A DNA stretch of 64,000 nucleotides, taken from positions 186,001 to 250,000 of the forward strand of contig VJWM01000209.1 of NCBI GenBank assembly GCA_010909165.1, read 5' to 3'. Source of the DNA: Anthoceros angustus. Lineage: Eukaryota > Plantae > Anthocerotophyta. The translations under genes and the position numbers were made by a program. The notes under the pieces are model-generated. The model was given only the letters and a program-made list of their open reading frames with translations, searched no databases and was not told the DNA's origin. This document shows, piece by piece, positions 170-35,429 of this stretch. Each line of letters starts with the position of its first letter. Within the stretch, counting starts at the first letter, position 1.

Positions 170-490
170 ATCCTAGACACGCGCCCGGGTGTGGGAGGCA
201 TGGACCAAAGCGGTGGAGTTCGAGTCCAAGAGCTGCAGTATGGGGAATGGCCCACCGCCAACAAAGATGATGCAACCGATGCTCAAGAAGTACGGGGCGG
301 GTTGTAATCCTTTTAGGCGGTGGTGCACAGATTTCAACAAGGCATTTCGGAGAAGTGGAAGCGCATCCCGACAAAGGCAGCGAGAGTGGGGTCTCATACG
401 CGGCATTGAGAACATGGAATCATACATCGACACGGGAGGTTTAGTGCTCGATTACGAACTGGTTTTGCGAGGATGTGTGGAAATGTGAAT
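170..490 (+). pseudogene. Degenerate ORF fragment, possibly GCR1_C-like DNA-binding domain (3' end of a transposon gene)
   Basis: The peptide (V)WEAW...QPMLKKYGAG...RQREWGLIRGIE loosely resembles the GCR1_C pattern (W.EW..G...L.KKYG..WR...R..I...IE). This is a by-eye match only. Confidence 0.25.
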
Positions 491-925
491 GTTGCTTCTC
501 TCATGCATGGAAATCGGGCATGTGGGTTTGAGTGCAAAGGGAGCTGGTGCGGCGCATAGAGGACATGAAGAGGACAATTCTCGGCAACACGCTGGCGGGC
601 ACGAACCATGGGATGGGGTCCTGCTCACCACTTGGATGATGTGGAGGCCTTGGCAAACGTGGAGATGGTGCCATCAACCCGAGCAACAGAGCAACCGGCG
701 AGGATGTGTGGAAATGTGAATGTTGCTTCTCATGCATGGAAATCGGGGCATGTGGGTTGAGCAAAGGGAGTCAGCGCGACAGAGGACATGAAGAGGACAA
801 TTCTCCCAAGAACACTGGCGGGCACGAACCATGGGATGGGGTCCTGCTCACCACTTCCGGATGATGTGGAGGCCTTGGCAAACGTGGAGATGGTGCCATC
901 AACCTGTGCAACAGAGCAACCGGCG
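467..925. repeat. ~230 bp direct tandem duplication
   Basis: gcgaggatgtgtggaaatgtgaatgttgc starts at both 467 and 698. The second unit ends in gcgagggatgtg at ~923. Confidence 0.9.
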
Positions 926-2062
926 AGGGATGTGGAGCCGCACCGAATAACTCTCGAAGCGCTACAAGTCCCTGTAATGCTTTGTGTTACCCATTTGCAA
1001 ATGTGTTACCCATTTGCTAACGTGTGGATGTGTGCCACGCAGACTTTGGCGGAGGAGCGTCTAAACCCGCAAAGTAGTCTTATGTCATAGACACACTGTG
1101 AAGCGGAAACACAGGTACCGGGTTTGCTATTCGGAGTCCGGGGTGTCTCCTGTTTTGAGGCTTGCAAAGAGCCTGTTGTGGTGTCTGGGTTTTTCAGCTG
1201 CAAGGTGTGCCCCGTTTCATGGTTTGGCAGCGTTTTCGAATGGATGGACTAAGCCTGGAAGGGATGTCTTTTTTCTGCTGACCAGGGAGTCCGGAAGAAG
1301 GGAGGAACAGCACGGAGGATGGAACAGCCGTCAAAGCGGGCGGAGGGGAAGGCGGCGGAGGGGAACGGGCGGAAGCATGCTCCAGATGTCGTCACGACTC
1401 GTTATGTTTTGGGTTAGGTGATTCTCTTGAATTTGGGTCTAAACGGGCATTTATCTCGGACTTATTTTAAGGTGAGATAACCCCATTTAACAATGCACGG
1501 ATCTTGCTTGGCCCGAGTTCCATGGGCCAACAGGACCTAATTAGAAGGTACGCTTTGTTGCTGGCTAAGATAAACCCGTATTAACTCTTGTGGATCGTAC
1601 AACCCTAATTGTAGCGAGGGTGCACGGCTTTATGCCACCGCTTAGGGCTGCATATTTTGAAATTTGAAATTTGAAATTTCCTATTGCAAGCTTGCTTGAT
1701 CCTGGCATTTCATACCGAAAGCGCGGAAATGTCCGCCGTCTTGCCCAATGAAGTGCCTCCACATCCATCGCGCTATTGGCCATGCTCCTAGGTATTTTGA
1801 ACCGTCGTTCGTGCAAAACGCCAATTACACATCACCGTAAACTAATTGGGATAAGGGTTGAACTTGCCCATGATTGGGCAATCCATTGTTGTCTGAATTT
1901 TTGATAGCAATGGACGCTATTGGCTAGGAGGCACCGAACGTAGGTACGCCAACCCACGCCATCGCGCTGACCGGACGGGCGCCAACCATGCATGGACGGA
2001 CGGGAGGATGGGGACGTCCGGTCGGATAAACCGCCCGACCTTTTGGCACGGAATGCCACGTC

Positions 2063-2423: not shown

Positions 2424-5400
2424 GCAATGTTTTGTAGTAGTGTAGTCACCACTCATTCTCCTCTCCGTCCACAATCCATTCTCATCCTTCTTTTTCGGCA
2501 CTGTCAGAAACTGGCCCTCATGAAGTTAGATCGTCGAATCAGCCCTAGCTTGAGAAGCTCTTGGCATCGATTCTCAACCAAATCCCACTCGCCGCTGAGC
2601 CTCGTGCTTCCCTCGCGAACACCGTTCATCCGTGGTCCTATGTGGAACTTCCCTTGGTGTACTTCCCCATCTCCGCAAGCGTGAAAGCAAACACATGTCG
2701 CGATGCCTCCAACAACTCCTTTAGCCGACGCTGCTGATTGCTCTTCAACTCGACGCCTTAACCACTCATGTGGTTGTGGCTCGGGATGGCTTGCACGCCT
2801 CTACGTGCTCGCCTCCTTGCCTCCAAACTCGCCTTCTCCGCTGAGATGCGAGTGCCGAATGTCCTTCACCCACCGAACCCGCCGCTCAACCCCGCCTTCT
2901 TCCTCGTTTCGGTTGGTAAGCGACCCAAATACTAAACAACCGTGTCATCATGTTCACGCCAAATGCTTGCTCAAGCAATCGACACCGCTCCTTCCTGGCC
3001 ACTCCCTCTTCTGGCCCTCAAGATCAAATCCCATGGCCAACTCCCTCTGTGGTCATGGCCTCCCAAGGCCTCGCCATGTCTCCACCACAACGCCGGGCCA
3101 TGGTTCCAAGGCGAAGACTTGGACTTAGACACAAAGGTTGGCCAAGCCGCCATGGGGTGTCCAGCGTGTTCGTGGAAGTGCGGCAGCCTTGTCGGCCTTG
3201 ATGACTTGTTGGGCATGCCTTCCCGATGCTAGCACATCCTTGACAACATGATTAGGTCGCTTGGTGAACGACCAAGACACTTCAAATGTTCCAAGGGAGC
3301 AAGGTTAGTCCACATGGACCTCAACCTATGAGCCCTCGAACCAAATTGAGTCGCATCCAATAGAAGCTCCCGACCCAACACTCGGATCGTGGCAAAGTCC
3401 TCCCGAACTTGCTTCTTCACGCTCATGCATGCCGGCACATTCTCCAACATGTATCCACAAGGCCTTTCTTGCCCTTTCTCGGATCAAGCGCAAGATCCTC
3501 ATCGTCATATTCTCACGTCATATGTAGGCACGTTTTGTAGTAGTGTAGTCACCACTCATTCTCCTCTCCGTCCACAATCCATTCTCATCCTTCTTTTTGA
3601 GCATCGCATTGCGTCTGTGATTAGATCGTCGAATCAGCCCTAGCTTGAGAAGCTCTTGGCATCGATTCTCAACCAAATCCCACTCGGCCTTCTTGAGATG
3701 CCTCTGCGGAACCTTTGGTTCATCCGTGGTCGATTCTATGTGGAACTTCCCTTTGGTGTACTTCCCCATCTCATAGCGTGAAAGCAAACACATGTCGCGA
3801 TGCCTCCAACAACTCCTTTAGGCGGTTGGTTGCTCTTCAACTCGGCGCTGTTAACCACTCATGTGGTTGTGGCTCGATGGCTTGCGCTTCCTCTCGTGCT
3901 CGCTCTCCTTGCCCTCAAACTCGCCTTCTCCTGCTGAGATGCGAGTGCCGAATGTCCTTCACCCACCGAACCCGCCGCTCAACCCCGCCTTCTTGGTTTT
4001 GAAGTTGGTAGCGACTCCGGCGCTAAACAACGGTCATCATGTTCACGTCAAATGCTTGCCCAAGCAATCGACACCGTTCCTTCTCGGTCACTCCGGTGTC
4101 TTCGGCTCGGCATCAAATCCATGGCCAACTCCTCTCTGTGGTGTTGGCTCTCCCAAAACCTCGCCATGTCTCCACCACAACGCCGGGCCATGGTTCTGAG
4201 GCGTAAGACTTGGACTTAGACACAAAGGTTGGCCAAGCCGCCATGGGGTGTCCAGCGTGTTCACAGAAGTGCGGCTTGTCGGGTCTTGATGACTTGTTGG
4301 GCATGCCTTCCGATGCTAGCACATCCTTGACAACATGATTAGGTCGCTTGGTGAGCGACCTCGCACACTTCAAATGTTCCAAGGGAGCAAGGTTAGTCCA
4401 CATGGACCTCAACCTATGAGCCCTCGAACCAAATTGAGTCGCATCCAATAGAAGCTCCCGACCCAACACTCGGATCGTGGCAAAGTCCTCCCGAACTTGC
4501 TTCTTCACGCTCATGCATGCCGGCACATTCTCCAACATGTATCCACAAGGCCTTTCTTGCCCTTTCTCGGATCAAGCGCAAGATCCTCATCGTCATAGAA
4601 CAATGTCGTGGATCCTTGACCTTGACCCTTGCCTCGCAGAGGATAGTCTCGACACTCCCAACCCGCGATGACAAGGTCCACCCTTGCCCAAGCAATCGAC
4701 ACTGCCTTCCTGGCCACTCCCTGTCTCGTGGCTTGATCAAATCCCATGGCCAACTCCCTCTCGTGGCTGTTGGCTCCCAAGGCCTCGCCATGTCTCCACC
4801 ACAACGCCGGGCCATGGTTCCAAGGCGTAAGACTTGGACTTAGACACAAAGGTTGCCATGGGGTGTCCAGCGTGTTCATGTGGAAGTGCGGCCTTGTCGG
4901 CCTTGATGACTTGTTGGGCATGCCTTCCCGATGCTAGCACATCCTTGACAACATGATTAGGTCGCTTGGTGAACGACCAAGACACTTCAAATGTTCCAAG
5001 GAGCAAGGTTAGTCCACATGGACCTCAACCTATGAGCCCTCGAACCAAATTGAGTCGCATCCAATAGAAGCTCCCGACCCAACACTCGGATCGTGGCAAA
5101 GTCCTCCCGAACTTGCTTCTTCACGCCATGCATGCCGGCACATTCTCCAACATGTATCCACAAGGCCTTTCTTGCCCTTTCTCGATCAAGCGCAAGATCC
5201 TCATCGTCATAGAACAATGCTGCTCGTGATCCTTGACCTTGACCCTTGCCTCGCAGAGGATAGTCCTTGACACTCCCAACCCGCGATGACAAGGTCCACC
5301 GCTGCCCAAGACAACTCAAATGGGACAACCCTATCATGCGAACATCCATCCAGCGCCTGTAACCCTTCACCGACTCCCACGCCGAGGTTAGGTACTCCCC

Positions 5401-5760
5401 ATCAAGTCTCTTACGCTCGTGACACAATCCTTGCTTTTGGATCCGGGTCACAATGCACGATCTTCGCACTTTGATGCCACACTTTAGCACCGCCCAAGCC
5501 GATCGATGCCTCCAAAGAGTTCCACGAGCACTATGCCGCTTTTCCCGAGGTCGCCATGTGATGACCGGGTGTTTAGGTCACAAACAGCTCAACCCTAGGC
5601 AAGAACTTAGCAGTAGCCCTCATAGGACATCGGGTCCTCTTGCACCATCCTCCAGCCTTTTGCACGGCTCATTGCCATACCACCTCCGTCCGGCTGACTT
5701 GAAGAACCTCCTCCGAGGGTGGTTGCAACCCTAGCTTATCTTCCTCCTCCTCATCAAAAT
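2424..5760 (-). mobile_element. Ty3/gypsy pol remnant: linker - C5 DNA methyltransferase - start of RT, internally tandem-duplicated
   Basis: MTase motifs are followed on the same strand by gypsy RT N-terminal motifs (ELLKLGLIRRS...KKKDENGLWTERRMSGDY) at ~3530-3800 and again at ~2424-2700. Confidence 0.85.
4035..5540 (-). pseudogene. DNMT3-like C5 cytosine methyltransferase domain in retrotransposon pol (frameshifted; motifs IV-X duplicated)
   Basis: Motifs in order: I GIVLVELFGGI (5537-5505), II VHCDPDPKAR (~5450), IV VDLVIAGWECQGL (5299-5261), VI YMLENVP (~5150), VIII LLLDATQFGSRAHRLRSMWTNL (~5070-5010), IX ERELAMGF (~4760), X RCRLLGQAFDV (4076-4040). A further partial copy lies at 2950-3510. 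Confidence 0.85.
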
Positions 5761-5999
5761 CCTCCATCAGGTCAGTTGCGGTTGTTAGACACACGCCAAG
5801 AGGTTCAAGCACGTATGGCGTTGTGGTAGGTTAGCCCCGGTCACCCGGAGCTCGCCTCGGTGGCCACACTTATCCCACGGTCGTTGAATACGTAGGTTCG
5901 ATCCCAAGAGATTTGGTTCGGATTGTTTCAGTCGCCTCCTCTCGCTCTCATCCTCCCGCCCCGGCCTACTTGTCCTCGCCAGGCATAAAGGTGTTGTGC

Positions 6000-6710
6000 T
6001 TTTGGGTTATTCGCCCACGCCGCCCACGCCTTCCGTGATTCCTTTCTCAACACCTCCTATGCCACTACAACGATCAATTCACTCTACAACGACACACCCA
6101 TAACCAACCTCTTCACCATTCTCAAAAGAAACATAGCTCACGACAATCCCATTCAAGCTCACTTCATTCGATCCCCAAATCTAACTCTACTCGAACGTCG
6201 GTTTGCACGCCTCCCTTGCGCACAACCTGGGTGGCGACTAGCCGGGTATTTCTCTCCGATTGCGGCACGAACACCGCGAGCGTAGTCGAGCGCCACCCCG
6301 CAGGGCCACCCAGAACACAAAGCACATCCAACAACAATCTTTCACGAGAGGAGGAGCTGCGTGAGCGAACCCACCGCGAGGGCCTCCGATCAACCTCACC
6401 TTCGCCTTCTCGCCGCTTGGCGACGGACAATCACGACACACACAAAGGGATGCGCCGAGAGGCGAAGAATGCATGACAAAGCAAGGTCCGTGTTTATTCA
6501 TTCTTCCACCCTCCCTTTTATAGGTGGGGAGTCGACTAGTCACTCGGGTTTAATGCTAGGCGACTTGCCAAGTCCAACAATAGGACTCTTGTCCCCCTCA
6601 GTGTCCTCTCACATTCACCTTGACCTAATATCCTATCTCTCATACCGCCGCCACTCTTAAATACTCACACTTCCCAAGGTGTGCACCACTTGGGACAAAA
6701 CGCCCCCTCG
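6000..6710 (-). mobile_element. Putative LTR with upstream polypurine tract
   Basis: On the minus strand GAGGGGGCGTTT (6710-6698) is followed by TGTCCC at 6697, and a TATA box CCTATAAAAGGGAGG lies at ~6520. The 3' boundary is uncertain and no second LTR was found. Confidence 0.5.
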
Positions 6711-6719
6711 AAAAGGTCC

Positions 6720-9250
6720 CACCGACGCCCCTCACGCTTTTTGTTCGCCTCAGCCTTCAATGTCTTCCCTCGATGGGTCGCTTAGCCTTGCCACCTCCGT
6801 GGAGTCTTCAGTGACTATGCCTGTAGCACCGCCACATCGCCCCTCACTGGTAGGTCTTCCACGTGGTAGGAGGTTCCATTCCTCCTACTGCTCATCCTCG
6901 TGAGGTTCCTCCCCACTCTCGCCTTCTTGGTAGGCGGTTCATCCCCTCCCTCGGATCTTGCTATGGGGTTCCTTCCCTCACACTGGTTTCGCCGGAGGTA
7001 CCCTTCCTTCCGGGGTCACCTCCTCCTCAGTTCCTTCCCGAGTAGGAACTTTGGTAGGTACCATCCTACCATCCGGCTCTTCCTCCCGCTTGATAGCTCC
7101 ACCGTCTCGGAGGTTCCCATCGGCCGTAGGTGCTTCTTGACTCGCTTCGGCTATGTCTAGCACCGCCTTTCCTTGTACCAACTCAAAGTTGTGGTCGCAT
7201 ATTCCACTTGGTGTCGAATGGAGGTCCGCTTTCTTCGTCTTCCTCACAGGCGTTCCTCAATCGCTTCTAGGAGGTTGTTGTAGTAGGTCGCCACCCTACC
7301 ACTCTCCTTCTTTGTGCGCCATGATGCGGACCCTTAGTGGGATGACGTCCCACCCGGCCCCATTTGTCACTCCTACCAATGCGGCCTCTTTCTCCACTAC
7401 GCTCTCCAACCTGTGGCAAGCCTCCCAATCTCCTTATCTTTCTCCATGGCTTCCATTGCCATGTGTTTCACTATGGCGAGCCGCCGCTCCTCGAATGACC
7501 AAGACCCTCCAAAGATCGTTGGGCCATCAAAACTTCCTTCCGTTCCTTGCCTCCGCTCATAGGCGTGGGTAAGGTCGGCCTTCTTTCTTGTTGCTCCAAA
7601 AGTTCTCTCACACGAAGCTCCTCTTTGTGACCCTTAGTCACATTGTCCCATCCTTGTCGCTCTTCACCAAGTCGATTTTTTCCTTGTAATGCTCCTTCCG
7701 TTGCTCCATGGCAACTAACTTCTTCGTAGGAGGTCCTTCTCGTCTTCAAGGTCTCACTGGCCTTGCTACCGCCTCCTCCGGCTCGATGTGTCCTACCCTT
7801 GCTAGGTAGCTTCCAACTTCCTTCCGCCTCCTTCCCAGCTTCCAACTCGCCCTCTTGGCTGATTTTGCCTCTGTCCTAAGACACGGTCAATCATTTCCCA
7901 CACATTCACCAACTTGGTGGTCATCTGTCGCTCTTTGGCGGATCTAGCACGGAGTGTTGCTTCTGAGGTGGTTTTGAGCTCCTCTCAATTTCTTCTCATC
8001 CTCCAGCCCTTTCGAGGTCTCAAGTTCAGACGAACTCGGCCACCTCCCGACACGTCCACTAGGGCGTCCATAGATCCTGCGCCCACTTCCTCACCTCAAG
8101 AACTACCCTTTGTAGGATGCCGCCGTTCTCAAACACTTCCCATCGCCTCCTCTGGTGCGTAGGTCACCAACGCCTCGGCGTTCTTCTCTCACACGCCTCC
8201 ATCTCAAGTCTGTTACTCTTCGGGAGGTAAAGTTCCTACCGTAGGTCCTCCATCCTTCCTGAGTCCTACCGTAGGAGGCTCATTCCCTGGCACGGGTGTT
8301 GTCGGCCTACCAATCCTTAACCCTCTGGTAGGTGGTCTCGTATCCTTTCCTCCTTCCACCGTAGGAGGTTCTTCTATGGCCTCTTTCCCTTTCTCTTGTT
8401 GGGTTCCTGATCCTAAGGCCTCATGTTGGTTCGGGCGGCTCTTGCCCAGGGTCTCGCCTGCTCTTCATCCTCTGGGGCCAGTGATGGCTCTCCTTCCACC
8501 ACCCTCACCAGTGTAGCTTCTATCTTGGCTTCTTCCAGCTCGTCAGCTGTAAGAACCTCCTCCCTCTGATATAGGTGTACGAGGAAGGTAGAGACAAAGC
8601 TGATTCTTGCTCCCGCCATCACCAAATGGTTCCGGTGCGCAACCGCCTGTTCATACAGAATGGTGGCCCAATCCACTATCTTTCCCTGGGACATCTCATA
8701 TATCATCATTAAATGGGAATTCTCAGGTACGTCTTCCTTGCTGCGCACGTTAGTCCCAGCCATATCTTGGCGAATAGATTCCACTTCCGCTCCTTGAACA
8801 GAGAGATCCTCCAGCCATTGCCTTGCGACCATACTTCCTCCTTTGGTCGAGGAACATGCTCATAACCTCCTCCGGATCCGATTCTTGGAGAATCGAATCA
8901 CGGAATGATCCCCTTGTGGGCTTCCGATCAACACGATCCCGGAAATGTCGTACCTTCCACATCCTGTGATGACTTTGACCGTCAGATCCTCCGAATTGGC
9001 CGCCTTGGTCACTCTCATTCGTCACAAGACACTCGAACCAAGGCAGGCTGCAAAGTGCCAGGGCACCAAATACAGCCATTCCATCTTCATCTCGGCGATA
9101 GCGCCAACGCCTCAAATCTCGAGGTGAAATTGGAGCGGCCTACACTCGAACTCGGAATTGGGTGTTTCTTCCTTTTCCCTTGTGGGCGGTGTGGCGGAGG
9201 TTTCCTCCCGTGATCCCCGGCCCGTCCTCACTATCTTCACCATCCGCATG
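6720..9250 (-). pseudogene. Degenerate retrotransposon accessory ORF (3' extra ORF)
   Basis: Frameshifted ORF containing IVDWATILYEQ...ISFVSTFLVHLYQRE followed by E/R-rich coiled-coil sequence. It ends just before the PPT/LTR. Confidence 0.5.
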
Positions 9251-10049
9251 GGGAGCACACACAAGGATAGCAAAATTGGAGAGTTTGGAGTAATCTATCG
9301 TGCTAAGAGAGTGGAGAGCAAAGAGGTGGTGGTTTGGGTGAGACAGCAGCAAGGGAAGTCTTCCCGCCTCCTCGGCTGGGCCTCAACGCAACCACTAAGA
9401 GGTGACCTTGGCCCCTTCAATCTCCCTCCAAAGAACTTCTCCACTTTACGCTGCTTTGACGCCGGTAGCCTTCGCAAGCTCTTCTCCAGCGCCTCCAACA
9501 TTGCCCCTTGCTCGAGCACCTCCACTGGCCGCCTTGCCGGCTTGCCTCTGTGTTCAAGGCCTCCAAATGCCAATCGATCAAGACGCCACCGCCGCCTCCT
9601 TCGAGCGCAACTCCACTTACTCCCCGCCGCCCGCTGTGTTTCGCCAAAACGCCTGCTCAAACCCCTCTAACCAGATTTGCGTGTACATGCAACCGCTTTA
9701 ATGCGCTCCTCCGATGGCCATGTGTCCGGTCCAAAACTCCTGCAGCTACTTTCTATTTACAACTTAACTAGCCCTATTTGGCATATATAGCCATGCGTAA
9801 CCTAAATACTTCAAGGCCAAGGAACTTTATCCCGAATATTCTTACTCCCATGGTCCAAGGAACTTTATGGAACCTATCATGCCTATAGATGCTCCTATCT
9901 ACTCCTACTTCCTACCGGATCGAAGCCGAGCTCGGTTAAGGCCGAACTTCCCTGACGTCCTACCGCCTTCCCACCTTTCTATCGACCTACCTACCACCAC
10001 GAACACCCATCCTGCAGCGTCGGTCTCTCACGCGCGTCTTGGGTGACCA

Positions 10050-11553
10050 AAATTCTCCATGTTCCCGCGTGTTCTTCACCACCCCCAAACACTAGGTAGC
10101 GGCCTGCCGAGGTTCTCATGATTTTGCCATGCACTGCAGAGGGATGTGGGCAATCCGTTCACCTGCTTTTGCTCCAGCTTCTCAAACTGATCGATAGTAG
10201 ACCTGCTCAATCCACAAATCCACCATGACTCAGTGTTTGTACAAAGCGTCCGCCTCCCAAAGAAGACATCAAAAGTGTCTCGGTGACCAAGCGATGTACC
10301 TCGACAAAGGTGAAGTCTCTGTTTGGTTTGAATGAAACCTTCAGCTTGTACCTTGTCACCCCAACACATGCTCCGTGGTCCCAACAAGTGCCCGATCTTC
10401 CACTTGGTTTCCTTCAACCTTTCTTGGTGGAGACCCAACGCCTTCACTCTTCTTCCAACGATCACCGGCCGTGCTCCTGTCAATCAATCCTTGGTGCGAA
10501 TCCATTGATTTCAATGTGCCTCTCGATTGTTGACCAAAGCCACTCCCACTGCAAAGATTCCGCTTCCACGAGATGCTTGGCCCGAGGTCAAGAATGACAT
10601 CATTGCCACTGTTGTAGCACATTGTCGACACTTGCTTCGCCTTCAAGGGTTGTCAACATCCGCCGAGTCAAACCCCCGACTTCCTTCACGCCAACCCCAT
10701 GTCTTGTAGGTCAAACATGGCATCTCCAAGCTTTTGTGCCATCGCCTCACACAACTGCATGGGTTTCTCCACATCGCCCACTGACTTTGATGTTGCTCCC
10801 ACGATGTTATCTGTGCAATGGCTCAAACGACTTTGGCATCTCTAAGACAGGTCTCTGGAAGAGGATCCCAAGCTTCCTTCCGTGTCTTCCGTGACCGGTG
10901 TCAAGACATCCTCTTCTTCCTCCGAGCTATCTTCTCTCGTAGCCAGAGGTTTCTTCCCTTGCCCTTGGATCACAGTCCCGCCATGTATCCAAGCTTGTGC
11001 TCATCTTCTTCGCCCTCCGATGATGAACCGCTTCCTTGATCTTCGCCCGCACCAACTTCTCCAGCTTTGCAAGGCGTGCCACGTAGGCTCCATCATCTTT
11101 GATCCTTCCCGCTTTTGTCCACGGACTTCGCCGGCCTCCTCCACGCCTTTGCTCTTCACCGATTTTGTGGATGAGGTTGACGCAGATGCATTGGCCGGGT
11201 TGCCGATAACCCGTAGGCCGCAATTCCGGATGCTTCTCCCAACATGCCGCTTCATTGTGCCTGCCTCCCACACCTAGGGCATGGCTCCTCACCCTTGACT
11301 CCTCCGAATGCATGCTCGCACTCATGAGGGGAATGGTCCGCCCCTCGGCACCTCACGCAGGGCTCGCCACTTGTGTGGGCTGGCTTGTCTCGCCGAGCTC
11401 CTCCACTGACCTCCGCTTCATGTCGCCCACCACTCCTACTTGTGCCGGAGTAATCACTTGCAAAGACGAGAAAGTGTCACGGGCCCTATCTTGTCACCCA
11501 TCTCGACACTTCCTTGAGGGTGTAGTGTTGCCCCTTCGGCTGCCGTGCATCAT
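10050..11553 (-). mobile_element. Gypsy gag-protease remnant
   Basis: Protease-like LID(T)GARPVIVG (~10480) and FDVFFGR (~10270), with a Cys/His knuckle-like remnant at ~10740. The gag 5' part probably continues at 23858-24000, beyond the inserted recombinase element. Confidence 0.6.
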
Positions 11554-13289
11554 GTAAAGTCGCGTTCTGGGCCCTGGGGCCTCGGCCCAAATTGGTTTTT
11601 TGGTCTACAGAGTAAAATTTTAGAGAGAGAAAATTGACCTTTTGGTCATTGTTTTACCCAGAGTAAAATTCATTACTGATAGTAGAAAATCATCTACCAT
11701 CAAGGTACAAAACAACGAACCATACAAGTGGGTAAAATCATCTACCATCAAGGTAGAAAATAGAGCACTAGAGTAGAAAACATGACGACCAAGTGAATAC
11801 CACCGGGTCTAGAAGCTCATTCTAGAAATCCCACCAAAATCGCTAATCGACAAAAACATTTTCTGTTAAATAATATTCATGCGGATCCGGGATATACAAA
11901 ACCAACAAAGAAACCTTTTCTTTGCGAGTTTCTGTATATCCGTAATGGCATGAAATACAAATTCAACTAATGAAGAGTAAATACCGATAGATTGAACTCG
12001 CTAGATTGAACTCTACTTCAACAACAATGGAACCTACAAAACAAACAAACAAAGACACAAACCGTGATTAGGTGATACTAGAAAACACTGGAAATAATCA
12101 TAGCAAATACTTAGGAAATGATACTCACCTTATTTAGGAAATTGACGTAATTATCTGATTGAAAACGTAATTTTCACGACCACTTGGCTTGATTGGCGGT
12201 ACAAAGATCATTCTTGGCAACCAATTGATGAAGCGAGGACTTGGACGAAATTGTCCTTCGCAAGGTGACAACCTAATAAAATACAACCATTGATTTTCAA
12301 TGTACTGATTAATAAAGAGCATAAGAAAACTTACCAATCGACGGATTTTCGCAGAGAGCGTGCAAATATCTCGAGACACATTCTTCTCGCTCGTTCTCTT
12401 TTCCACTGCAGTCTTGAACCTCTCTTGCCGCCTATCTGCCGCTTTGATGCTTAATGTGCTCTTGTCTCCTCTCCACATTTCTCCGCCTGGATCTCAAGGG
12501 CTTTCTCTCTTTGCTTAGAGACTCGTAATTCAACCGCTACGCCTGTCTCTCTATAAGAGCCTCCAAATCCTTTTGTCGAAACTCCAATTCTGCTTCCTAT
12601 CATACTCCACCTCATTCCGTAATCTCAAGCCACCGCTCAAAGCCACTTCCATTTCCATTTGCAGTCACAGGCTGCAATACAATATCCAGAGGTGCTACCA
12701 CAGCCACATTTCTGTCCTGGTTAACTTCAGATGACTGATCACACTCACTATGCACAATGCCCTCCAACAGAGGGACCAGTGCATCAACTTCCCTCAGAGC
12801 TGTATCAATGTTGAAATGAGGGACAGTAAGGCTGCTTCCACTAGTCGCAGGATTCACAACCTGCCAAGATAAACATAATCAGGAAACTCCAAAAGAAGTG
12901 AAAACAAACAAACAGACAAAGAATCAACCTTGTCAACATATGGAATTTCACTAGAACACCCAGTTGGTCTCATATCCATCAGATGCCTTGGCCACGCTTT
13001 CGGGAGGTATGTTTGCAACCAAAAACACGCCTCCCACGCCCATAACAGAGACCGATGATTAAACAGATCCAACATGGCGACGCAACCAAGGAACGACAAT
13101 ACCAACTCGAACTTGACAAAGTGGACCACATGGTGCGAAAACTCGTTCGGTCCGACATTGTTCAAAGGTCCGCTTTCATGATGAACAGAGTTGCTACGAG
13201 ACCTAACACACAAAACAAGTCGACAGGATTAGTCAAAACAAGTCCCTACAAACTTGCAACAAATCTCAAACACTTACATTGTTAACTGT

Positions 13290-15425
13290 TGCACTCGCGA
13301 TCTTGGTGACTAGAAAATACAATTTCGAGTCACATTGAGGACAGTTGACGGAAGAACACCCTTAAATCATCCCGCATCCGATTCTTCAAAAGCTCGATAG
13401 GATCGCCGTTCACCGTGAACAAGGACTCTTCGCACTGTTTGCTTGACCGCATTCCATATCTCGCAAACCATATCGAACATCGAAGGAACATACAAAGGAC
13501 TCAAATGTCACAAGCTTTCAAAACATATTACCTTGAGAATCCAGCATCCGTTTTATGGCCAGTCACACTTCTCCCAGCATCAGAAGGCACCTGAGCCATC
13601 GTCAAACGTGTAATCATTGTTACACGGCAGCTCTTATTGGTGTAATAGCCAACGAGCCCAGTTGCTTCAGCCATGGTCTTCATGAACCTTGACAACATTC
13701 CTTTTGAAACACGAAGTTTTGCATACCAAGCCTAGCCAAAAACAAAACAAAGAAAATACAAACCACAAAACTTAAGCCCAATAACAACAAACTTACATTT
13801 GATCTTGGGTTATCAATTGTTGAATTGAACAAAACCCCGAATTGATGATTTTTGTCGTTGCACCACTTGGGAGAGTGTTCAATAATGACTCTAAAAGTTT
13901 CGATAACATCGTCAGAATCTTGACCTTTTGACGAAATGCTCACTGGTAATTCTTCATGTCCACTTTATAATTTTTGAAAGCCGTTCTTGATACCGCAAAT
14001 AAAAGCGAGCTTAATTGACATCAAAACAACCAAAACATACAAGACGTCAAAGATACAATGAACAAAACAACCAAAACATCTCGAACAAAAGGTCCTCGAA
14101 TCACGAGAGAACGAGAAGTCCTCGATGAGCGGTTATGTAACTCTTCACCACCTCGAACTCCAAACTGGTCATGCAAAAATATGCACACCGCAAACAATAG
14201 AGCAGACCTCCGGTTAAAACCATAAATGAACAATCAAAGTGCACCCCCTAAACCAACAATATTACCTTTTTTGAGCCCCCCGCCCAAATGAGCATTGATG
14301 ATCTCTGTGTGAAAGAATCCGTCGCTCATCATCATCAGAAATCAACTTCACCTCTTTTCGACATGACACAATCCCAAGGTCCTTGCTGATTTTCATGGAC
14401 GCAACCAACGCTGCCTGGGACCCATGGAAAATTCCATGAAACATGTTGATCACCGGAACATCAGAACCAAGCCGGCTTTGGTTCAAGATGCACTTCCTTG
14501 TTAAAATTCGGTTAAAACCACGAAAGAAAGACATCAACCTGCACAAGAGAGAATCAGAAATCAGTCATGTGAATGAAAGTCAGAACTATCAAAATCAACA
14601 AGTCAAAAACATCACTACTTACGCTTCGGAGAAAATCTCCGTTGTCCTTGATTCGAACTTGATGGAAAAAGGATATCGAATAAGATTTAGATCCTTGTAA
14701 GGAATATCCTCAGAGATCCCATCCCCGACCCCACTCACTTTCATAAAGGCCCAGACGACTTGACACCGCTTATTCCGCGCTTTGGACCTATCCTCCCCAC
14801 CACTCAAGCATCATTCACAGCCTCCTCGGGACTATTGGGTCAAATCCGCTCTAAAATTGCTTCATCATCAATTTCCTCCATACCCATGGCAAAGTCATCT
14901 TGGGATCATCACACTTTAGCCTCTCAAACATATCAAGCACTTCTTGATCGTGGATGACTGTGGTCGAACCACAACAGCATGGAAAATCGCCCAGTAAAGC
15001 ATTCTGCTCAACGGCAGCACACAAATCTCTAGACTCAGAGTTTTGGCGACTCACAACCATGGGATCGCTTATCAAGAAATCATTCTCCCCACAACCGGAC
15101 CCCTCTCTCGATAATCGGGACATAGTTAGTAATCTGCAAGAGGACCTTCAACCAAAGCCACAGTCGAGTGTCCACCCTTCTCCTCTCGAACAAACTCACC
15201 GCACGTCGAGCGTCCTTCTTGGATGAAAATCGCCTTGGCGGTTAAAAGTCTTTTGGGAACTAAGTTCCTTCACTGCACCAAGACACCATCAACTTTACCA
15301 TCATCCCGCAGCGGATGAGTTGCGATGCGAAGCGGATTTGACACTGTAGTATATGGCTTGGCCATAACTTCACCAGGATCCTTGTTTTCTTCCCGCCCGG
15401 CCCGGGGTTTTCTTTTAGGAGCCAT
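13290..15425 (-). CDS. Intron-containing tyrosine recombinase of Crypton/DUF3504 type (frameshifted in this copy)
   Basis: Starts MAPKRK (15425), then EDIPxKDLNLILISFFHQVRNLKDNRRFSPET (clearest in the inverted copy, 47620-47720). Further motifs: AALVASMKISKDLG...ISDDDERRIL; FGVRGGEE (14164-14141); YQERLSKN; WYAKLRVSKGMLSRFMKTMAEATGL.GYYTNKSCRVTMITRL...VTGHKTDAGFSR|Y (13731-13455). GT-AG junctions lie at 14622/14539, 14265 and 13531. Further Cys-rich exons may extend to ~12130. Confidence 0.85.
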
Positions 15426-17180
15426 CGCAAAAGCGAAAAGATTAGAGTGGTCAAGGAACTTGACAACACAAACATCCTAGTTGACAAAAGACAAAATAAA
15501 AAACACTTACATGGTGTTGAACTTCCATAGGAACTCAAGGGTCTAACAATTGATTATAAAACAATCGAAGACGAGGATAGGGATGGGGGGATATGGCACA
15601 CATTCATTGAATATACACATTGTTAAATATTGAAATCCTCCACTTTTGGTTAGTGAGAAGATAACTCCTTTTCAAACAACACCCACATACTTCCGTAATA
15701 GAAGACTTTGTCGGCAAGTTAGATTTAAGAGAAAACAAACAAAATAAGGTTATCCGCAGACATACAAACAAGAATGCATAACAAACTACGAGATTCAATC
15801 ATGACTTCAAATTCAGTGAAATGGTTATCCCGATTCAGATGCACGTAATCGTTGCTGTCAACCCTTCACACGATGAACAATAAAGCCTACACACAAAAGA
15901 ATTAGATTATTCACAGAGAACTCACAGCAAAAAGACAACGAGGTAATTATCAATGAGGAGAAATCATCAAGTTTAAAATACTCAATAATATACTGGGTTA
16001 CACCAACAAAACGCCTTATACGAGAGCTTGTTCAACAAGCAAGGACCTTAGAATAAGAATGAGACAAACGATTGAACCCGACAATGCACGACAATTAATA
16101 AACACGAATTCAACAAAGACTTGTTGAATTCGCAAGATAACAAAAAAGCATTTTTAAACAAAAGAACATTACAAAGCGAACAACAAAAGACGCTTTTTAC
16201 CAAACAAGGTCCCAAATGTGTCACACGTCCAAACCTTGATCGCATCAAAAGATGAGAGAGTAAGATCACAAGCAAGGCAACGCTCCAGAAAGAAGAGAAG
16301 GCAAGATTTTGCATCGACACAACAACAAACAAACGACATAACCATGACACAAAAGACAAATGTAAATCATTGTCAAACTTGACAAAGTAACCAACCTTTC
16401 TTACGCCCAACAACCTCTTGCACCGATTACTCCTGCTTCAAAAAGGAATAGAAGACAATAAGAACATCGCTCAACATTATAAACAATGAAAGCATCAAGA
16501 GAAGATAACATACATTTTCCAATAAGAACATATGCGTAAACGCAGAGAAACCTTGACACAAAAGACATTTGATGACTTACCAAAGTGGTCCCGATCTATA
16601 ACCGCCACTTCAAACGAAAACTTGATCGCATCAAAACACAATGGAGAGGGTTACAACACACGAGCAAAGCGAAGTGTCAGAACAAAGACTTGAACAGCAA
16701 AGTCGCTAACGAACATTTTAAAACCATAAACAAAATTACGAACAAACAGAATCAAACTAAATAACAAACGATTTAACGATAGAGACAAGAAGACGGCAAG
16801 ACAAAAGAACCTTCAAACAGAAACCATGGAACCACAACAAAACAGCGACGATAAAGGGACACTTCCACAAAACAAACAATCAAGCAATACGAGATTTTGC
16901 AAGAGAAAGAACACAAGTATCACATATGCAAAAATGAACAAAAGTAAGCCTAGCCAACCAGAAGCTCGAAAGCATCGAAGAATTACCTGGTCGCTTACAT
17001 GAGAGGAAGTAACACCATCGACAACGTAAAAAGCAAGATCAAGAACAACGCAAACTACGAACGAGAAATCAAATAGAACAACAAAGACTAGGGACATACA
17101 AATCGATAACATCTTAGCGGTCTTTCCTAAGAAAGATAAACAATCACGCAGGCAAAGAACAACATAAACAACAGACAAAA

Positions 17181-18185
17181 TACACAAAACATCCTACGAT
17201 GTATATAGAAACTTGAATACACTACCACCAGAGGTAGACAAAACAGAAAGCAAAACTAGAAAACAAAGAATGAAACACAAAAGCCAAATACACTACTCCC
17301 AGAGTAAAGCAACAAAACCGCAAAAACAACAAGACACAAAACAACAAGACACAAAACAACGTGAACGCAGATGGCCTTCAAATAAAGAAAAGGCCTTAAG
17401 AAAGAAACCTTGGCCTTTACCAAACAACCTTGGCCTTGGACTAAGCAAGCACATGGACCTTAGATAAAAGACACCTTGGCCTTGAACATGGGAACCCCTT
17501 GAAAAAGAACCTTCAAACAGAAAGCAAAACACCTTGGCCTCAAACAAACTTTACGACACCTTGGCCTTGAACAACAGAAAGGCCTTAACATTGGAAAGGG
17601 CCTGAAAGAAACCTTGGCCCCAAAACTTAAACGACCTTAGCGAACCTAGAACACCTTGGCCTTCAAATGAGCTACACAAAACATCCTACGATGTATATAG
17701 AAACTTGAATACCACCATAGAGGTAGACAAAACACGAACCCGAACAGACTAGAAAACAAAGAATGAAAGGACAAAGCGCCAAATACACTACTCCGTAGCA
17801 ACGAAACAACAAAACCGCACAAAACAACAAGACACAAAACAACAAGACACAAAACAACAAAACAACGTGAACGCAGATGGCCAGCACAAATAGAAAGGCC
17901 TTAACCTTGCGAATAAACCTTGGCCTTGCCAAAACAACCTTGGCCTGGACTAAGCAAGCACATGGACCTTAGAGGCAAAGACACCTTGGCAACATGGGAA
18001 CCCCTTGGCCTCAAAAGAACCTTCAAACAGAAAGAACACTTGGCCTTCAAAACAAACTTTACCGACACCTTGGCCTTGAACAAATGAGAAAGGCCTTAAC
18101 ATTGGAAAGGGCCTGAAAGAAACCTTGGCCCCAAAACTTAAAACCTAGCCTAGCGAACCTAGAACACCTTGGCCTTCAAATGAGC
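17181..18185. repeat. ~490 bp tandem duplication in a CCTTGGCC-rich repeat region
   Basis: tacacaaaacatcctacgatgtatatagaaacttgaatac occurs at 17181 and 17673. It is present only once in the inverted copy. Confidence 0.85.
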
Positions 18186-18354
18186 TCTAGACCTTAGCCT
18201 TGAGGAACCAAACACGCTATTGAAACTAGAACTAAAACAGCCTCCTTCAAACAGAGGACCTTGGCCTACGAAACTAAACACGAGCAAAACACCTAAGCCT
18301 TGGAGAGGACCACCTGGACTTGAAAAGACAGAATGACAAAAGAACTCCGATGAA

Positions 18355-18385
18355 AGCCATTTATATAGGCCAGCAAACCCTAAAT
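18355..18385 (-). promoter_or_regulatory. Putative TATA box plus telo-box driving the recombinase transcript
   Basis: The minus strand reads TTTAGGGTTTGCTGGCCTATATAAATGGC. The motif is conserved in the inverted copy at 44100-44130. Confidence 0.45.
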
Positions 18386-20289
18386 ATTCTCACCTGGCGC
18401 CGTTTTCTACCTTGGTTTGAATTTACAACCTCCCGAGCCCAATTCCAAACCACCGAGGTTTGCCATTCACCCCTGCTCAACCAAACCTAGATTCAATTTT
18501 CCAAACCTAGCCTAGGCACCAAACCTAATCTCCAACCCCGATGCGGGAACGTTACCGCCAACCAGACCGCCACGCACGCCCACCATCGAACCATCTAGAA
18601 CCCTAACTTTCGAAAACAAAGATGCACATAGGGTTAGTGGTCACGCCCAACACGCCGCCAGTCGCACGCTCGCTTCCTCCCGATATCACCCTGCCGAGTG
18701 ACCATTCGCTCACTGAGTCCCTGGAGAAGGTCCGCGCAATCTTCCTCATCTGTCACGCCCACTACATGCGTCGATGCATCGCCCGCTAGTTCCATCTAGG
18801 TCGCCAGCGCCTTTCAGCCGCAAACCATCTCGACACGCCTTGCGCACACCGGTCACCCATCTCCTTCCACCGCCAACACGACATCAAGAAGTCGAGGTCT
18901 CCTGGGTAGCGCCGCCACACTTACGCCTCTTCTTTGTTTTCTCATTCGCAACCACGCGGTTTTACTCCGTCGGTAGCAATCGCCAGCCCGCTGGTCGCTT
19001 CTTGCTGATGCTGAAAGTCTCGAGACATAGCCGCACAAAACCTCGACGCCCTCCGTGGGTACGCTCGCACGCTACGCCTGTCTCTTCTTTGTTTTCGTTG
19101 CAGCCCATTGAACGCCACTGTCGTCTTTGCTTCCGTTTCGCTCGCAGCTGTAATCGCCGTGAGTTTGCTGCGCCATGATTTAATTTGGGGTCTCATAAAC
19201 AAAACCTCGACGCCCTCCGTGGGTACGTTGTCCAATTTACGCCGCTTTTTCTTTGTTTTTCGCACCAATTGCCAACGCCATCTTGCCTTTACTTCCGCCT
19301 CGCTCGGTAGCCTCGTAATCGCCATCGTCCGCTTCGCTTCCTTGCTTGATTTAGCTGAAGTCTCGAGACATAGCCGCACAAAACTCGACGGCCCCTCCGT
19401 GGGTACGTTGTCACACGCCACGCCGCGTCTCTTCTTTTTGTTTTCGTTGCAGCCCAATGCAACTGTCGCGTGGCTTTTGCTTCGCCTCGGATAGCTGTAG
19501 CGTGAGTTTGTTGCAACCGCCTTGCTTATCAAGTGATTTGTTGTTGCGTATATCGAGACATCGCACAAAACCGCCTGTGGTCCACTGAGAAGTAAGTTCG
19601 CCTACAGTTGCCAACCACCTTACTTCCATTTGCTTGTTTTTCAAAGTCCGCATCGCGAGTAAGCGTGTCCTCGATAGTGTTGTCTCCGATCTGGCGTTTG
19701 CATCGGCTTAATCTTCGCTTTTTCCTAGATCACCGGAAACACGCCTAGTGTGGTGTCCGCAGGTCCAACCACACGAAAACACAACCGTAAGTCACCTCCA
19801 TCACGCATGCGAGTTAAAGAAGCATGCTTGTCAAATGTTATCGCGGGCATGGTAGTGCATGCTAGTTGCTGCATACGATGCGAGTCACGCCGCAGACGCC
19901 ACTGCATGTTGACGTGTCATGCAGCGTGTCGAGTCAACGCCAGTAGATGCTTGAGTGGCATGCCGCAAAACGCGGATGCCGCAACACGCGATCGGACTTT
20001 GTAAACTCACGCCTCTCCTCTTTCGTGAATTGCGCAGCCAAAGGTCACGCAAGAAGGCGCCACTCTAGTGTAAGCCCGCTCCAATTCTCAACTTGTTGCA
20101 CCTTCATGCGCCTTGTTCACCGATTTGATTTGATTCTCCACATGATTCTAATGATTTTTTGAATCGGGATGGAATCGAGAACAAGCAATAACGATTTTCA
20201 AATCCAAGAAGGTACTTGATTGTTATTCGCATACGCTTCTTACTTTGCTTTTACTTTTACTAATATCTATGTGTCAACCCCTCAGACAA

Positions 20290-21830
20290 GAACTACATGA
20301 CGCCACCGTGAGCGCCACTCGACAAATTACTTCCCACCCATGGGGATCCAGGATATGACGCTAACAGAGTTTGAACCACCACCGGAGATAAGAAAGATCG
20401 TAGAAAAGGTATTCGTGAAAATGATTGAGTCCTGTATGTTCTCGTTGGTCGAGTCTAACAAAACCCGTGGGTTGCGCCTCTCATGAGCACACAATGTTCT
20501 CGTGATGGACAAACAAGACCTTAAGCATCTTTGCGAGATGCCCGCCATTGAATAAGATAAAGAAGGTAAGCACTTTTCTTTAATTCATAAACTTGATCTA
20601 ATTATGCTCAAATCCAAAATCTTAACCCTAAATTTATCTCGCAGGATATCAAAAGAACCTTGAACAATGACTCAATTGAGCCGAAACGCACACTTGTGGA
20701 AAGGTTTAATGGACACCGATTTCAATGCAAACAATGTTGGAGGGATATCAAAGTTCAATCCAGCGATCGGAGGTAATCAAATTAATACATTCATACCTTC
20801 TTTGCTTCTTCACATTGACCTTCTTATAACTTGGCATTACTGTATCGCCGGAAAACAAGTCGCTGCAAAAACATAAAGGACAAAGTCGATAAGATTGACA
20901 ACAACATTGACAACGCAGCCATCTCCAATCGTATACAAAAGTATTAGTATATAATGTGCATTAATATGATTTTGGTTTAAGAAATTAATGATTTTGGTTT
21001 TGATCGTGCAAAAAGAGAAAATTGATGACTTCAGGAGGATGGACCAACTTACGGGCCGTCACTTGAGTTCACCGAGTTTGGAAAGTGGATGAGCAATTTT
21101 CAATATCCACCACTTTTTCAAGACTTTAAAGATAAGTATTCTGCAATTTGGGAGCATAGTCTAAAAGAGCAAGTACAGCCCATCTTGAATGAAGATGGGT
21201 CCAACCCAACATTCGAGCAGTACAGACAAATCCAAGCAAGTAAGCCGCGATAACTTCTCTTTTCTCTATTATTTTCATTACATATAATTCTATGTAATGT
21301 AATTCTGTATGCATTGAATGCAGAGATAGGGGCAGCAATTGAAAATAAGGAGTTGAAAACGACAGACTTGTTGTCTCTCATGGAAGAACCAGAGACAACT
21401 AAAAACATTCAAAAGGTACATCGTTTGAAAGGTAATATCTGCTTGCATTCCAAAAAAAATTCTAATGTTTATGTTTCTTCGGAACATACGATCACATTTC
21501 CGCAGTGCGGGGAATCTTCACAGCACGTGTTTAACGCTTGTCGAAAAGGTATATGCAAAGAAAGATCTTCTCCGAATTGAAATGGAGGTAAATGACTAAT
21601 TACTTTTACTTTTTGTTTGTAGTTATCGGAGAATCAAAACGAGTTGTTTTCACTCTTTGAGGTGAGTACTAAAGTTAAAAATAGATAAGTTTTATATATG
21701 AATTCGACAATGGTTTAAATTGCGAAATATTCTCGCTTGATGAAATATTGAAATGATAATACATTTATCGGACCATACAATCAGCAGCTCAAAAGTACTA
21801 TTCAAGAGACGGACACGTAACCATATTACA
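20290..21830 (+). CDS. Second, divergently transcribed multi-exon gene of the element; unknown protein with a CxxC motif
   Basis: GT-AG-bounded blocks (gaag|gtaag at 20566; gcag|gatatc at 20645) give PPxEIRKIVEK... and VERFNGHRFQCKQCWRDIKVQSS. The gene is duplicated at 22113-23570 and inverted at ~40500-42030. Confidence 0.5.
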
Positions 21831-27202: not shown

Positions 27203-27950
27203 CGTCATCTTTGGTACTCTGGTACCCTCCAATTCCAACAAACATCTCTCAGAGTTCTTACTATGTACCTGCCAATGCTTTTGAAGCTCTTTCCATCTCC
27301 TCATGGACTAACGTTCTGCTTTCTCACTCGTAATCCTAATCTCAAGATCATGACTTGTGGAGATGGCGGTTCCTGCACTGCCAAGTGCAAGCGGGTACCC
27401 CGGCTTTGTAAAAGTGAGGGCCAGCTGTGCCAGATTCTTTTCCTTTGTGTGCCTCCTGCAGACATGAGCCAGTGTGTCACGTATGGCGTGTCCTCCTTCA
27501 CTACGGCGCCAAACACTGGGTAGACGCTGTTGGCAATGAGCTTTTCATGATCCTTGCCATGCAGCTGCAGAGGGATGCGGGCAATCCGTTCATCGGTTTT
27601 GCTCCAGCTTCTCCGGTCGAGTCGATAGTGGTATCTCGAATCACAAATCCACCATGACCTGTGTTTGTACAAAGCATCCGCCTCCCAAAGAAGACATCAA
27701 ATATACGCATCTTGACCAAGCACTGTACCGACAAAGGTGAAGTCTTGTTCTCCAACCCATAAAAGTGGCAAATTGAAAGGCAAACTGCGAGCATCAATCC
27801 TTCCACTTTCCAGGAGATGCACTGTGCAGGAGGTGAAGAAGGAGAGCGACCCCTACACCCCACGAGCATCATGTGACTAAGGCGGTCTGGGCCTTGAGAC
27901 TCCATCGAGCAGCCAGGAATTGAGGTGCTGCCCCGCCTATTTGCGCCACA
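27203..27950 (-). mobile_element. Diverged gypsy protease-linker remnant
   Basis: FDVFFGRR...HGGFV...RIARIPLQ is homologous to 10130-10280. QEPPSPQV resembles LQPPSEEV upstream of the MTase at ~5720. Confidence 0.65.
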
Positions 27951-33281: not shown

Positions 33282-33372
33282 AATCAGTATAGAAACTCTG
33301 GATGTGGTCACCTCTACACAGGACATACAGACACATCAAATCTCACCGACCACACATTCTCCCTCCATCAAA

Positions 33373-35412: not shown

Positions 35413-35429
35413 CAGTGTTTCTCAGTATA

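What the first reader, a model, noticed from the sequence alone, without database searches (positions are those of the whole stretch)
2424..5760. Gypsy retrotransposon encoding its own DNMT3-like cytosine methyltransferase upstream of RT
Seen: C5-MTase motifs I, II, IV, VI, VIII, IX and X in canonical order, directly followed by RT. Motifs VIII-X (DATQFGSRAHRLRSMWTNL, ERELAMGF, RLLGQAF) parallel DNMT3 (AHRARYFWGNL, ERVFGF, RLLGRSW). A second diverged copy (27203-27950 joined to 47869-48005) suggests the order protease-linker-MTase. Known: DNMT-carrying retrotransposons have been reported in dinoflagellates and the streptophyte alga Klebsormidium. Inference: the lineage persists in this land plant and may pre-methylate its cDNA.
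Basis: partly seen in the sequence, partly recalled or inferred. Interest (0 to 1): 0.85.

Follow-up and report, generated by a model that had tools for sequence, protein, structure and literature searches.

The report
Hornwort retrotransposon carrying DNMT3-like methyltransferase
This is a broken, incomplete copy of an abundant hornwort jumping gene whose replication protein contains a DNA-methylating enzyme domain that likely marks the element's own new DNA, a design reported so far in algae but not in land plants.

Summary
On the minus strand, a C5 cytosine methyltransferase (motifs I to X, catalytic Cys, Glu and two Arg present) runs directly into the start of a Ty3/Gypsy reverse transcriptase. 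The family profile ranks DNMT3A/B first among methyltransferase structures. The order gag knuckle, protease, methyltransferase, RT is seen in this copy once an unrelated 4.2-kb insert is set aside. It matches Klebsormidium KnitGypsy-Dnmt3 and Closterium proteins, and the domain groups with them in trees. Short-read contigs of three organisms tile it in hundreds of variants, so it is a repeat family, not a chance neighbour. Host P450 genes nearly match Anthoceros agrestis models: the host is a hornwort. Corrections: 2424-5760 is three staggered tandem copies, likely long-read assembly errors like the frameshifts; most of RT, RNase H, integrase and LTRs are absent; the second copy's motif I is not significant. 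Activity and cDNA methylation are untested. This scan found the same kind of element before in peat-moss-like DNA, never in a hornwort. Verdict: new member of a known kind, extending it to land plants.

The parts
11170..11392 (-). gag zinc-knuckle region of the element (5' end cut off by a 12-kb repeat from 11557)
   Evidence: Aligns with knuckles of homologues P0095, P0084, P0086 (scores 91, 85, 64); weak with three other homologues (37-46, at shuffle level); 10103-11560 is covered in 4 of 4 runs
10126..10552 (-). aspartic protease domain, frameshifted
   Evidence: P0095 residues align 52/140, score 121; P0079 score 90; P0086 score 73; P0207 score 91 against shuffle maximum 36
5900..10100 (.). 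unrelated nested repeat of about 4.2 kb that splits protease from methyltransferase; no Pfam family
   Evidence: Depth 0 in 19 of 19 bins (6094-10102) for X2 and X3 and 17 of 19 for X7, covered in 18 of 19 for X1, while both flanks are covered in all four runs; P0095 alignment resumes at 5877 where it left off at 10126
5538..5877 (-). acidic linker between protease and methyltransferase
   Evidence: Collinear with P0095 residues 144-260 of the slice tested
4683..5537 (-). tandem copy A: DNMT3-like C5 methyltransferase, motifs I to the start of X
   Evidence: 40-46% identity to homologues, scores 240-313; catalytic residues present
4026..4692 (-). tandem copy B: methyltransferase motifs IV to X
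   Evidence: Longest open stretch 4116-4571 finds P0001-P0003 and DNA_methylase clusters in the Atlas at 0.90-0.92
3830..4025 (-). linker between methyltransferase and RT in copy B
   Evidence: Single collinear alignment MT-linker-RT with P0065, P0092, P0086, P0087 (scores 370, 360, 319, 322); covered without a zero bin in X1 and X2
3530..3830 (-). N-terminal about 90 residues of a Ty3/Gypsy reverse transcriptase, truncated
   Evidence: 45% over 90 aa to P0065, E 2e-14; all 6 MT-before-RT homologues rank in the top 7 of 49 RT-bearing homologues
2429..3509 (-). tandem copy C: methyltransferase motifs VI to X and the same RT start; likely assembly duplicate
   Evidence: 88.7% to copy B; differences rich in indels
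27496..27790 (-). diverged second protease fragment
   Evidence: 79% over 262 nt to 10074-10323; score 56 with P0095
47897..48016 (+). possible remnant of motif I of the second copy; unproven
   Evidence: Above shuffles with 1 of 8 queries; DNA similarity at shuffle level

Best explanation
This is a truncated copy of a high-copy hornwort Ty3/Gypsy retrotransposon family whose polyprotein runs gag knuckle, protease, DNMT3-like cytosine methyltransferase, RT, and whose methyltransferase likely methylates the element's own newly made double-stranded cDNA. Shown: the domain order, the catalytic residues, the repeat family in three organisms, the hornwort host, and kinship with the Klebsormidium and Closterium elements. 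Inferred: intact copies continue RT-RNase H-integrase in one frame as homologues do; the domain is packaged with RT as part of Pol; it uses SAM and the motif IV cysteine to write 5mC, probably at CG, on cDNA before or at integration; the benefit would be that new copies arrive marked like host repeat DNA. The deep, even divergence from algal homologues suggests inheritance from a streptophyte ancestor. The tandem copies and most frameshifts are likely long-read assembly errors. Odds: identity of the element about 0.95; active enzyme in intact copies about 0.7; cDNA as the main substrate about 0.45.
For: Homologues: 10 of 107 proteins have PR-MT or MT-RT order, among them Klebsormidium nitens P0087 (PR-MT-RT-RH-IN) and Closterium P0086, P0105; 7 of 120 further ones, including a complete 2188-aa ZK-PR-MT-RT-RH-IN frame, P0183. 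Trees put both window readings on the side of these 10 (SH-aLRT 99; 98 with a mixture model). Family profile against PDB: DNMT3A E 3e-21, DNMT3B 2e-19, DRM2 1e-10, HhaI 3e-7. Motif IV Cys and motif VI Glu are invariant in 96 of 96 typed homologues and present in both window copies. Contigs laid on 3420-4780: 497, 1189 and 671 in three DNA runs of three organisms. 9 of 14 listed variants in an in-frame stretch are synonymous (expected 0.25, P 0.002; 0.36 for transitions only, P 0.03). Host: P450 stretch identical over 36 of 36 residues to an Anthoceros agrestis model (compared by eye).
Against: No intact copy, LTR or in-frame MT-RT could be seen: no genome is held, and contigs are too short to span the element. 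No contig joins protease to MT across the insert. The Klebsormidium domain gave no methylation in yeast (PMC5890265, passage). The element's clear methylation scar is CWG loss (z about -8), shared with unrelated repeats and best explained by host chromomethylase; its CpG ratio (0.71-0.84) is no lower than that of host genes (0.60-0.89). The trees lack host DNMT3 and an outgroup, are unrooted, and the careful search did not finish. The best single MT score for copy A came from an MT-after-RNase H protein (P0026, 313 against 309). The synonymous test uses few, non-independent sites.
Confidence: 0.72

Rival explanations
1. The element is as described, but the domain is kept for a job other than cDNA methylation: binding nucleic acid, modifying the RNA or RNA:DNA hybrid, or methylating already integrated copies and so limiting transposition.
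For: No activity for the Klebsormidium domain in yeast; the usual motif IV proline is Glu in the window and in 77 of 96 typed homologues; no element-specific CpG loss; de Mendoza et al. list a host-benefit model.
Against: All catalytic residues are conserved across algae and hornwort; related Symbiodinium DIRS Dnmt3 domains methylate CG de novo; the position inside Pol puts it beside RT.
Confidence: 0.3
2. The hornwort family came by horizontal transfer from an alga, not by descent from a streptophyte ancestor.
For: Patchy named hosts: Klebsormidium and Closterium only among named MT-before-RT proteins; position of the window rows inside that group is unresolved (support 56).
Against: About equal distance, 40-46% identity, from all four MT-before-RT homologues aligned; no close donor among the 227 homologues examined; earlier scan notes report the same architecture in mosses (unchecked).
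Confidence: 0.2
3. The three tandem copies and the frameshifts are real decay of an old, dead insertion, not assembly errors.
For: Both internal junctions carry short microhomologies; B and C also differ by 52 substitutions; the copy is really interrupted by a nested repeat and truncated.
Against: Eight tandem pair comparisons across the window, including host P450 DNA, differ mostly by indels (indel/substitution 0.8-16) against 0.24 for true P450 paralogues; short-read contigs disagree with the window at many indel sites; no listed contig piece bridges either junction, though only 26 of 2369 pieces were listed.
Confidence: 0.25
4. Chance neighbourhood: a retrocopy or fragment of the host DNMT3 gene lies next to an ordinary Gypsy RT.
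For: MT and RT are not in one open frame here; A. agrestis has a host DNMT3 gene.
Against: Same order and spacing in algal polyproteins; MT and RT parts both pick the same group of homologues; both parts are multi-copy in three organisms.
Confidence: 0.02

Closest known systems
KnitGypsy-Dnmt3 of Klebsormidium nitens (de Mendoza et al. 2018, PMC5890265; read: abstract, first seventh of the text, sections 9 and 11, passages, peer-review file passages; figures not seen)
   Same: Intronless, unpermuted DNMT3-like domain inside Gypsy Pol; K. nitens GAQ92009.1 (P0087) has PR-MT-RT-RH-IN; 46% identity over 203 residues to copy A; same side of the MT tree.
   Different: Host is a hornwort; hundreds of contig variants per run against 33 DNA_methylase genes in Klebsormidium (not the same measure); motif IV GWEC and motif VI ENV against GWPC and EHV in P0087; the DIRS-like repeat layout reported for the algal element could not be examined.
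Closterium polyproteins (CAI7733511.1, GJP34393.1, CAI7911866.1, CAI7886383.1; unnamed in the database)
   Same: ZK-PR-MT or MT-RT-RH order; GWECQ motif IV; 42% identity over 202 residues.
   Different: Zygnematophyte alga; not found described as DNMT retrotransposons in my searches.
SymbioDIRS-Dnmt3 and SymbioLINE-Dnmt (PMC5890265); EpiLTRs (bioRxiv 10.64898/2026.05.21.726589, passages only)
   Same: Retrotransposon-borne cytosine methyltransferase; SymbioDIRS-Dnmt3 is DNMT3-type, in Pol, and active on CG in yeast.
   Different: Different element classes (DIRS, LINE) or a DNMT4-related domain (EpiLTR); independent captures according to those papers; not compared by sequence here.
Host DNMT3 and DRM of plants and animals
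   Same: Highest-ranking methyltransferase structures for the family profile; motif order I-X as in DNMT3.
   Different: No PWWP, ADD or plant accessory domain, no introns, embedded in Pol; not circularly permuted like DRM.

Membership tests
C5 cytosine methyltransferase | Motifs I, II, IV, VI, VIII, IX, X in order with FxGxG-type SAM loop, catalytic Cys, Glu of ENV, RxR | tested here: met
   all present in copy A; IV-X in copy B. Motif IV has EC in place of PC.
C5 cytosine methyltransferase | Pfam DNA_methylase (PF00145) match | tested here: inconclusive
   No hit for window ORFs or P0001-P0003; hit at E up to 0.001 in 12 of 20 homologues scanned; Atlas top three clusters are PF00145 at 0.90-0.92.
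C5 cytosine methyltransferase | SAM-dependent 5mC formation | not testable with these tools
   Needs an assay.
DNMT3 family | Closer to DNMT3 than to DRM, bacterial or other DNMTs | tested here: met
   Profile of 22 homologues: DNMT3A 79 bits, DRM-type 43-54, HhaI 32; profile with window pieces gives the same ranking. By profile score only.
DNMT3 family | Nests in the DNMT3 clade of a tree with host DNMT1, 2, 3, 5, 6 and DRM | not tested
   No host DNMT sequences were available as stored proteins.
Ty3/Gypsy LTR retrotransposon | gag knuckle, protease, RT in order; RT of Gypsy type | tested here: met
   homologues have RT-RH-IN order and Ty3/foamy-like integrase.
Ty3/Gypsy LTR retrotransposon | RNase H then integrase after RT; terminal repeats, PBS, PPT | not testable with these tools
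   This copy is truncated at both ends; no genome held.
KnitGypsy-Dnmt3 type | DNMT3-like domain within Pol between protease and RT | tested here: met
KnitGypsy-Dnmt3 type | MT and RT group with the Klebsormidium element | tested here: met
   MT: SH-aLRT 99 and 98 in unrooted trees; RT start: ranking only.
KnitGypsy-Dnmt3 type | MT in the same open frame as RT | tested here: inconclusive
   Collinear but frameshifted here; contigs disagree with many window indels; in frame in homologues.
KnitGypsy-Dnmt3 type | Purifying selection on the MT domain | tested here: inconclusive
   9 of 14 variants synonymous, P 0.002-0.03; too few sites for dN/dS.
KnitGypsy-Dnmt3 type | DIRS-like arrangement of terminal repeats | not testable with these tools
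   Element ends are not in the window.

The most novel reading that the evidence does not exclude
Gypsy-DNMT3 elements are not a Klebsormidium oddity but one ancient green-plant lineage, with the methyltransferase before RT in streptophytes and after RNase H in chlorophytes, that crossed onto land and is a major, recently active repeat family in hornworts, writing its own 5mC on new copies in a genome whose host machinery already silences it by CHG methylation.
Probability: 0.45. Interest if true: 0.75.

Novelty: new member of a known kind. Interest (0 to 1): 0.56.

Why it matters
A 2019 opinion paper states that transposons encoding DNA methylases are absent from land plants such as tracheophytes (PMC6338049, passage), and papers of 2025 and 2026 still cite only the 2018 streptophyte case. 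A high-copy family in hornworts moves the boundary onto land. It also makes the open question of what these domains do testable: Anthoceros agrestis has published methylome and chromatin data (PMC10952607), so activity, cDNA methylation and the interplay with host DNMT3 and CMT can be examined in a land plant. The homologue search shows a much larger chlorophyte-type group, pointing to an old association with a shift in domain position.

Tried and rejected
No whole genome was held, so the search for intact copies could not be run. Pfam on window ORFs missed MT, RT and protease. A homologue search with the host BAHD gene at E up to 1e-20 returned none of 6161 candidates, so it did not name the host. 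CYP85 clan and BAHD presence alone do not prove a land plant, as Klebsormidium has both; the U6 match at 57205-57304 was uninformative. In the host check 4 of 6 motifs found nothing in the trimmed alignment, one hit was a Chlamydomonas P450, and 10 of 22 supplementary files were not searched. No RNA holder was listed; two contigs from a run guessed to be RNA touch the element and are no evidence of expression. The 12-kb repeat at 11557-23830 was considered as the LTR and rejected: it has no consistent position relative to the second protease piece. The second copy's motif I and linker were tested and not supported. CWG loss was considered as a footprint of the element's own enzyme and rejected because unrelated repeats share it. 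P0053 was first classed as MT-before-RT and moved, as its PR-MT gap is about 440 residues and it groups with the other type. The careful tree search did not finish. No fold was predicted, since no whole in-frame domain exists in the window. The nested insert stays unidentified. Scan notes by place and by sequence returned nothing.

Full report
Observation. Six-frame translation shows methyltransferase motifs on the minus strand from about 5537 down to 4040, followed by a Gypsy-type RT start. Self-comparison shows that 2429-5800 is three staggered tandem copies: A (5800-4683, motifs I to X), B (4692-3530, motif IV to RT start) and C (3509-2429, motif VI to RT start), 89-93% alike. A frameshift-aware alignment with X at the breaks gives 264 for homologue P0001 against copy A, and 32-45 for 5 shuffles. 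Motif I Phe and Gly, motif II Asp, motif IV Cys, motif VI Glu-Asn, both motif VIII Arg and motif IX are present in copy A; Cys and Glu are invariant in 96 of 96 typed homologues. Pfam misses the broken window ORFs (0 of 52; 0 of 74). The Atlas places the longest ORF next to DNA_methylase clusters at 0.90-0.92 with a low shared-feature count, a lead only.

Sequence quality. Eight tandem pair comparisons across the window, one of them in host P450 DNA, differ mostly by indels (ratio 0.8-16), unlike true P450 paralogues (0.24). Short-read contigs disagree with the window at many indel sites (12 listed and 77 more; 12 and 390 more). I therefore read the tandem copies and most frameshifts as long-read assembly errors (inference, about 75%). 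The nested insert and the truncations look real.

Anatomy. Homologue P0095 aligns with a protease at 10552-10126 and resumes at 5877 with the linker and motif I. A gag zinc knuckle lies at 11392-11170 (weak with three other homologues). The 4.2 kb between protease and linker has no cover in runs X2 and X3 (0 in 19 of 19 bins) and almost none in X7 (0 in 17 of 19), while both flanks are covered in all four runs; X1 covers it as a repeat. No contig joins across it. So the order is gag knuckle, protease, MT, RT, split by an unrelated insert. The rest of RT, RNase H and integrase are not in the window. The proposed second copy has a real protease piece, but its motif I is above shuffles for 1 of 8 queries only and not at DNA level.

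A repeat family. Seven of 8 listed runs hold part of the stretch, from three organisms and three studies. Laid on 3420-4780, X1, X2 and X3 gave 497, 1189 and 671 contigs covering 29, 30 and 23 of 30 bins. One of these organisms may be the window's source, and summed contig depth is not a copy number. Of the 40 variants listed, I took the 14 in the stretch 4355-4482 where the frame is secure: 9 are synonymous (expected 0.25, P 0.002; transitions only 0.36, P 0.03).

Homologues. A profile search gave 105 long proteins; a full scan gave 876 clusters at E up to 0.001 and 214 at 1e-30. Of 107 proteins mapped, 10 have MT after protease or before RT, 94 have MT after RNase H or before integrase, often with a PHD finger, and 3 are MT only (with P0053 moved). 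Of 120 further proteins, 7, 67 and 46 fall in these classes. Named MT-before-RT proteins are from Klebsormidium nitens and Closterium; named members of the other type are from Haematococcus and Tetradesmus. Most hits have no organism. In an MT tree of 99 homologues (8 of 107 left out as too short) plus the two window readings, the window rows lie with the 10 MT-before-RT proteins (SH-aLRT 99); a 37-row mixture-model tree gives 98 (quick search, unrooted). All 6 MT-before-RT proteins rank in the top 7 of 49 for the RT start. A 22-protein profile ranks DNMT3A (E 3e-21) and DNMT3B above DRM-type enzymes (8e-14 to 1e-10) and HhaI (3e-7) in the PDB.

Host. The window holds four full-length P450 genes and one partial duplicate, with best PDB matches that include CYP90B1 and taxadiene hydroxylase, two BAHD acyltransferases and a copia element. 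Short motifs of these P450s, searched in the nine-species alignment of PMC9937507, led to Anthoceros agrestis models; one stretch is identical over 36 of 36 residues, others over 16-19, with differences elsewhere (by eye). Clan 85 has 53 genes in A. agrestis and 2 in K. nitens. Window GC is 48.4%; A. angustus has 49.6% and tandem CYP85 arrays. The host is a hornwort close to Anthoceros; the species was not determined.

Mechanism. As part of Pol the domain would be packaged with RT, so new cDNA is its most accessible substrate; this follows the model of de Mendoza et al. and is untested. Their related dinoflagellate domains methylated CG in yeast, the Klebsormidium one did not, which they call inconclusive. 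The element has lost CWG triplets (z about -8), as have the nested insert and the 12-kb repeat, but not host genes. A. agrestis methylates repeats in CG and CHG and has CMT and one listed DNMT3. So the host silences the family, and no footprint of the element's own enzyme is visible.

Literature. KnitGypsy-Dnmt3 is described from K. nitens only. Searches for a land-plant case found none; the library lacks most subscription papers. PMC6338049 states that such transposons are absent from land plants such as tracheophytes. Seen: PMC5890265 abstract, part 1 of 7, sections 9 and 11, passages, peer-review passages; passages only of the 2026 preprint, PMC6338049, PMC12344493, PMC7027989, PMC8075897, PMC11449225; passages and supplement rows of PMC10952607 and PMC9937507. 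Motif numbering of C5 methyltransferases and the assignment of CYP90 and taxadiene hydroxylase to clan 85 are recalled. Earlier scan notes report the same architecture in peat-moss-like DNA (unchecked); none names a hornwort.

Verdict. Real, and a new member of a known kind. The new part is the host range: a land plant, in a lineage with methylome data. Interest is moderate because the design is published, the scan has met it in mosses, this copy is broken and activity is untested.

Noticed in passing
homologues P0004-P0256: A large group of Gypsy polyproteins with the order RT-RNase H-DNMT3-like MT-integrase-PHD finger, with named members in chlorophytes (Haematococcus, Tetradesmus). Catalytic residues are kept. 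I did not find it described in my searches; it implies a shift of the domain within Pol.
   Followed up: partly
window 49950-56500 and 59650-64000; 31840-32520 and 57404-59030: Cluster of clan-85-type P450 genes and BAHD acyltransferases, with an alcohol-dehydrogenase-like gene at about 28480-30050 (read from translation, no library hit sought); could be a hornwort specialised-metabolism cluster.
   Followed up: partly
window 11557-23830, 24308-27202, 40187-47869: A repeat of about 12 kb without Pfam family, present twice; the second copy is split and partly inverted, implying an inversion or misassembly with breakpoints near 27203 and 47869.
   Followed up: partly
window 5900-10100: Nested repeat found only in run X1 among four runs, no Pfam match, CWG-depleted; class unknown.
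   Followed up: partly
window 33293-37900: Copia element (gag, protease, integrase) with much weaker CWG loss (z -2.8) than the other repeats (about -8), so perhaps younger or less targeted by CHG methylation.
   Followed up: no
window 57205-57304 minus: U6 snRNA match (69 bits) with altered 5' stem and no terminal U run, 100 bases upstream of a BAHD frame; likely a pseudogene.
   Followed up: no
window 467-934, 17181-18186, 20376-23830, 35433-39776, 52189-54836: Many head-to-tail duplications of 0.2-1.7 kb with indel-rich differences; findings from this assembly that rest on tandem copies or frameshifts should be treated with caution.
   Followed up: yes
window 30283-30775: Tandem array of a 44-base unit, about 11 copies.
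   Followed up: no
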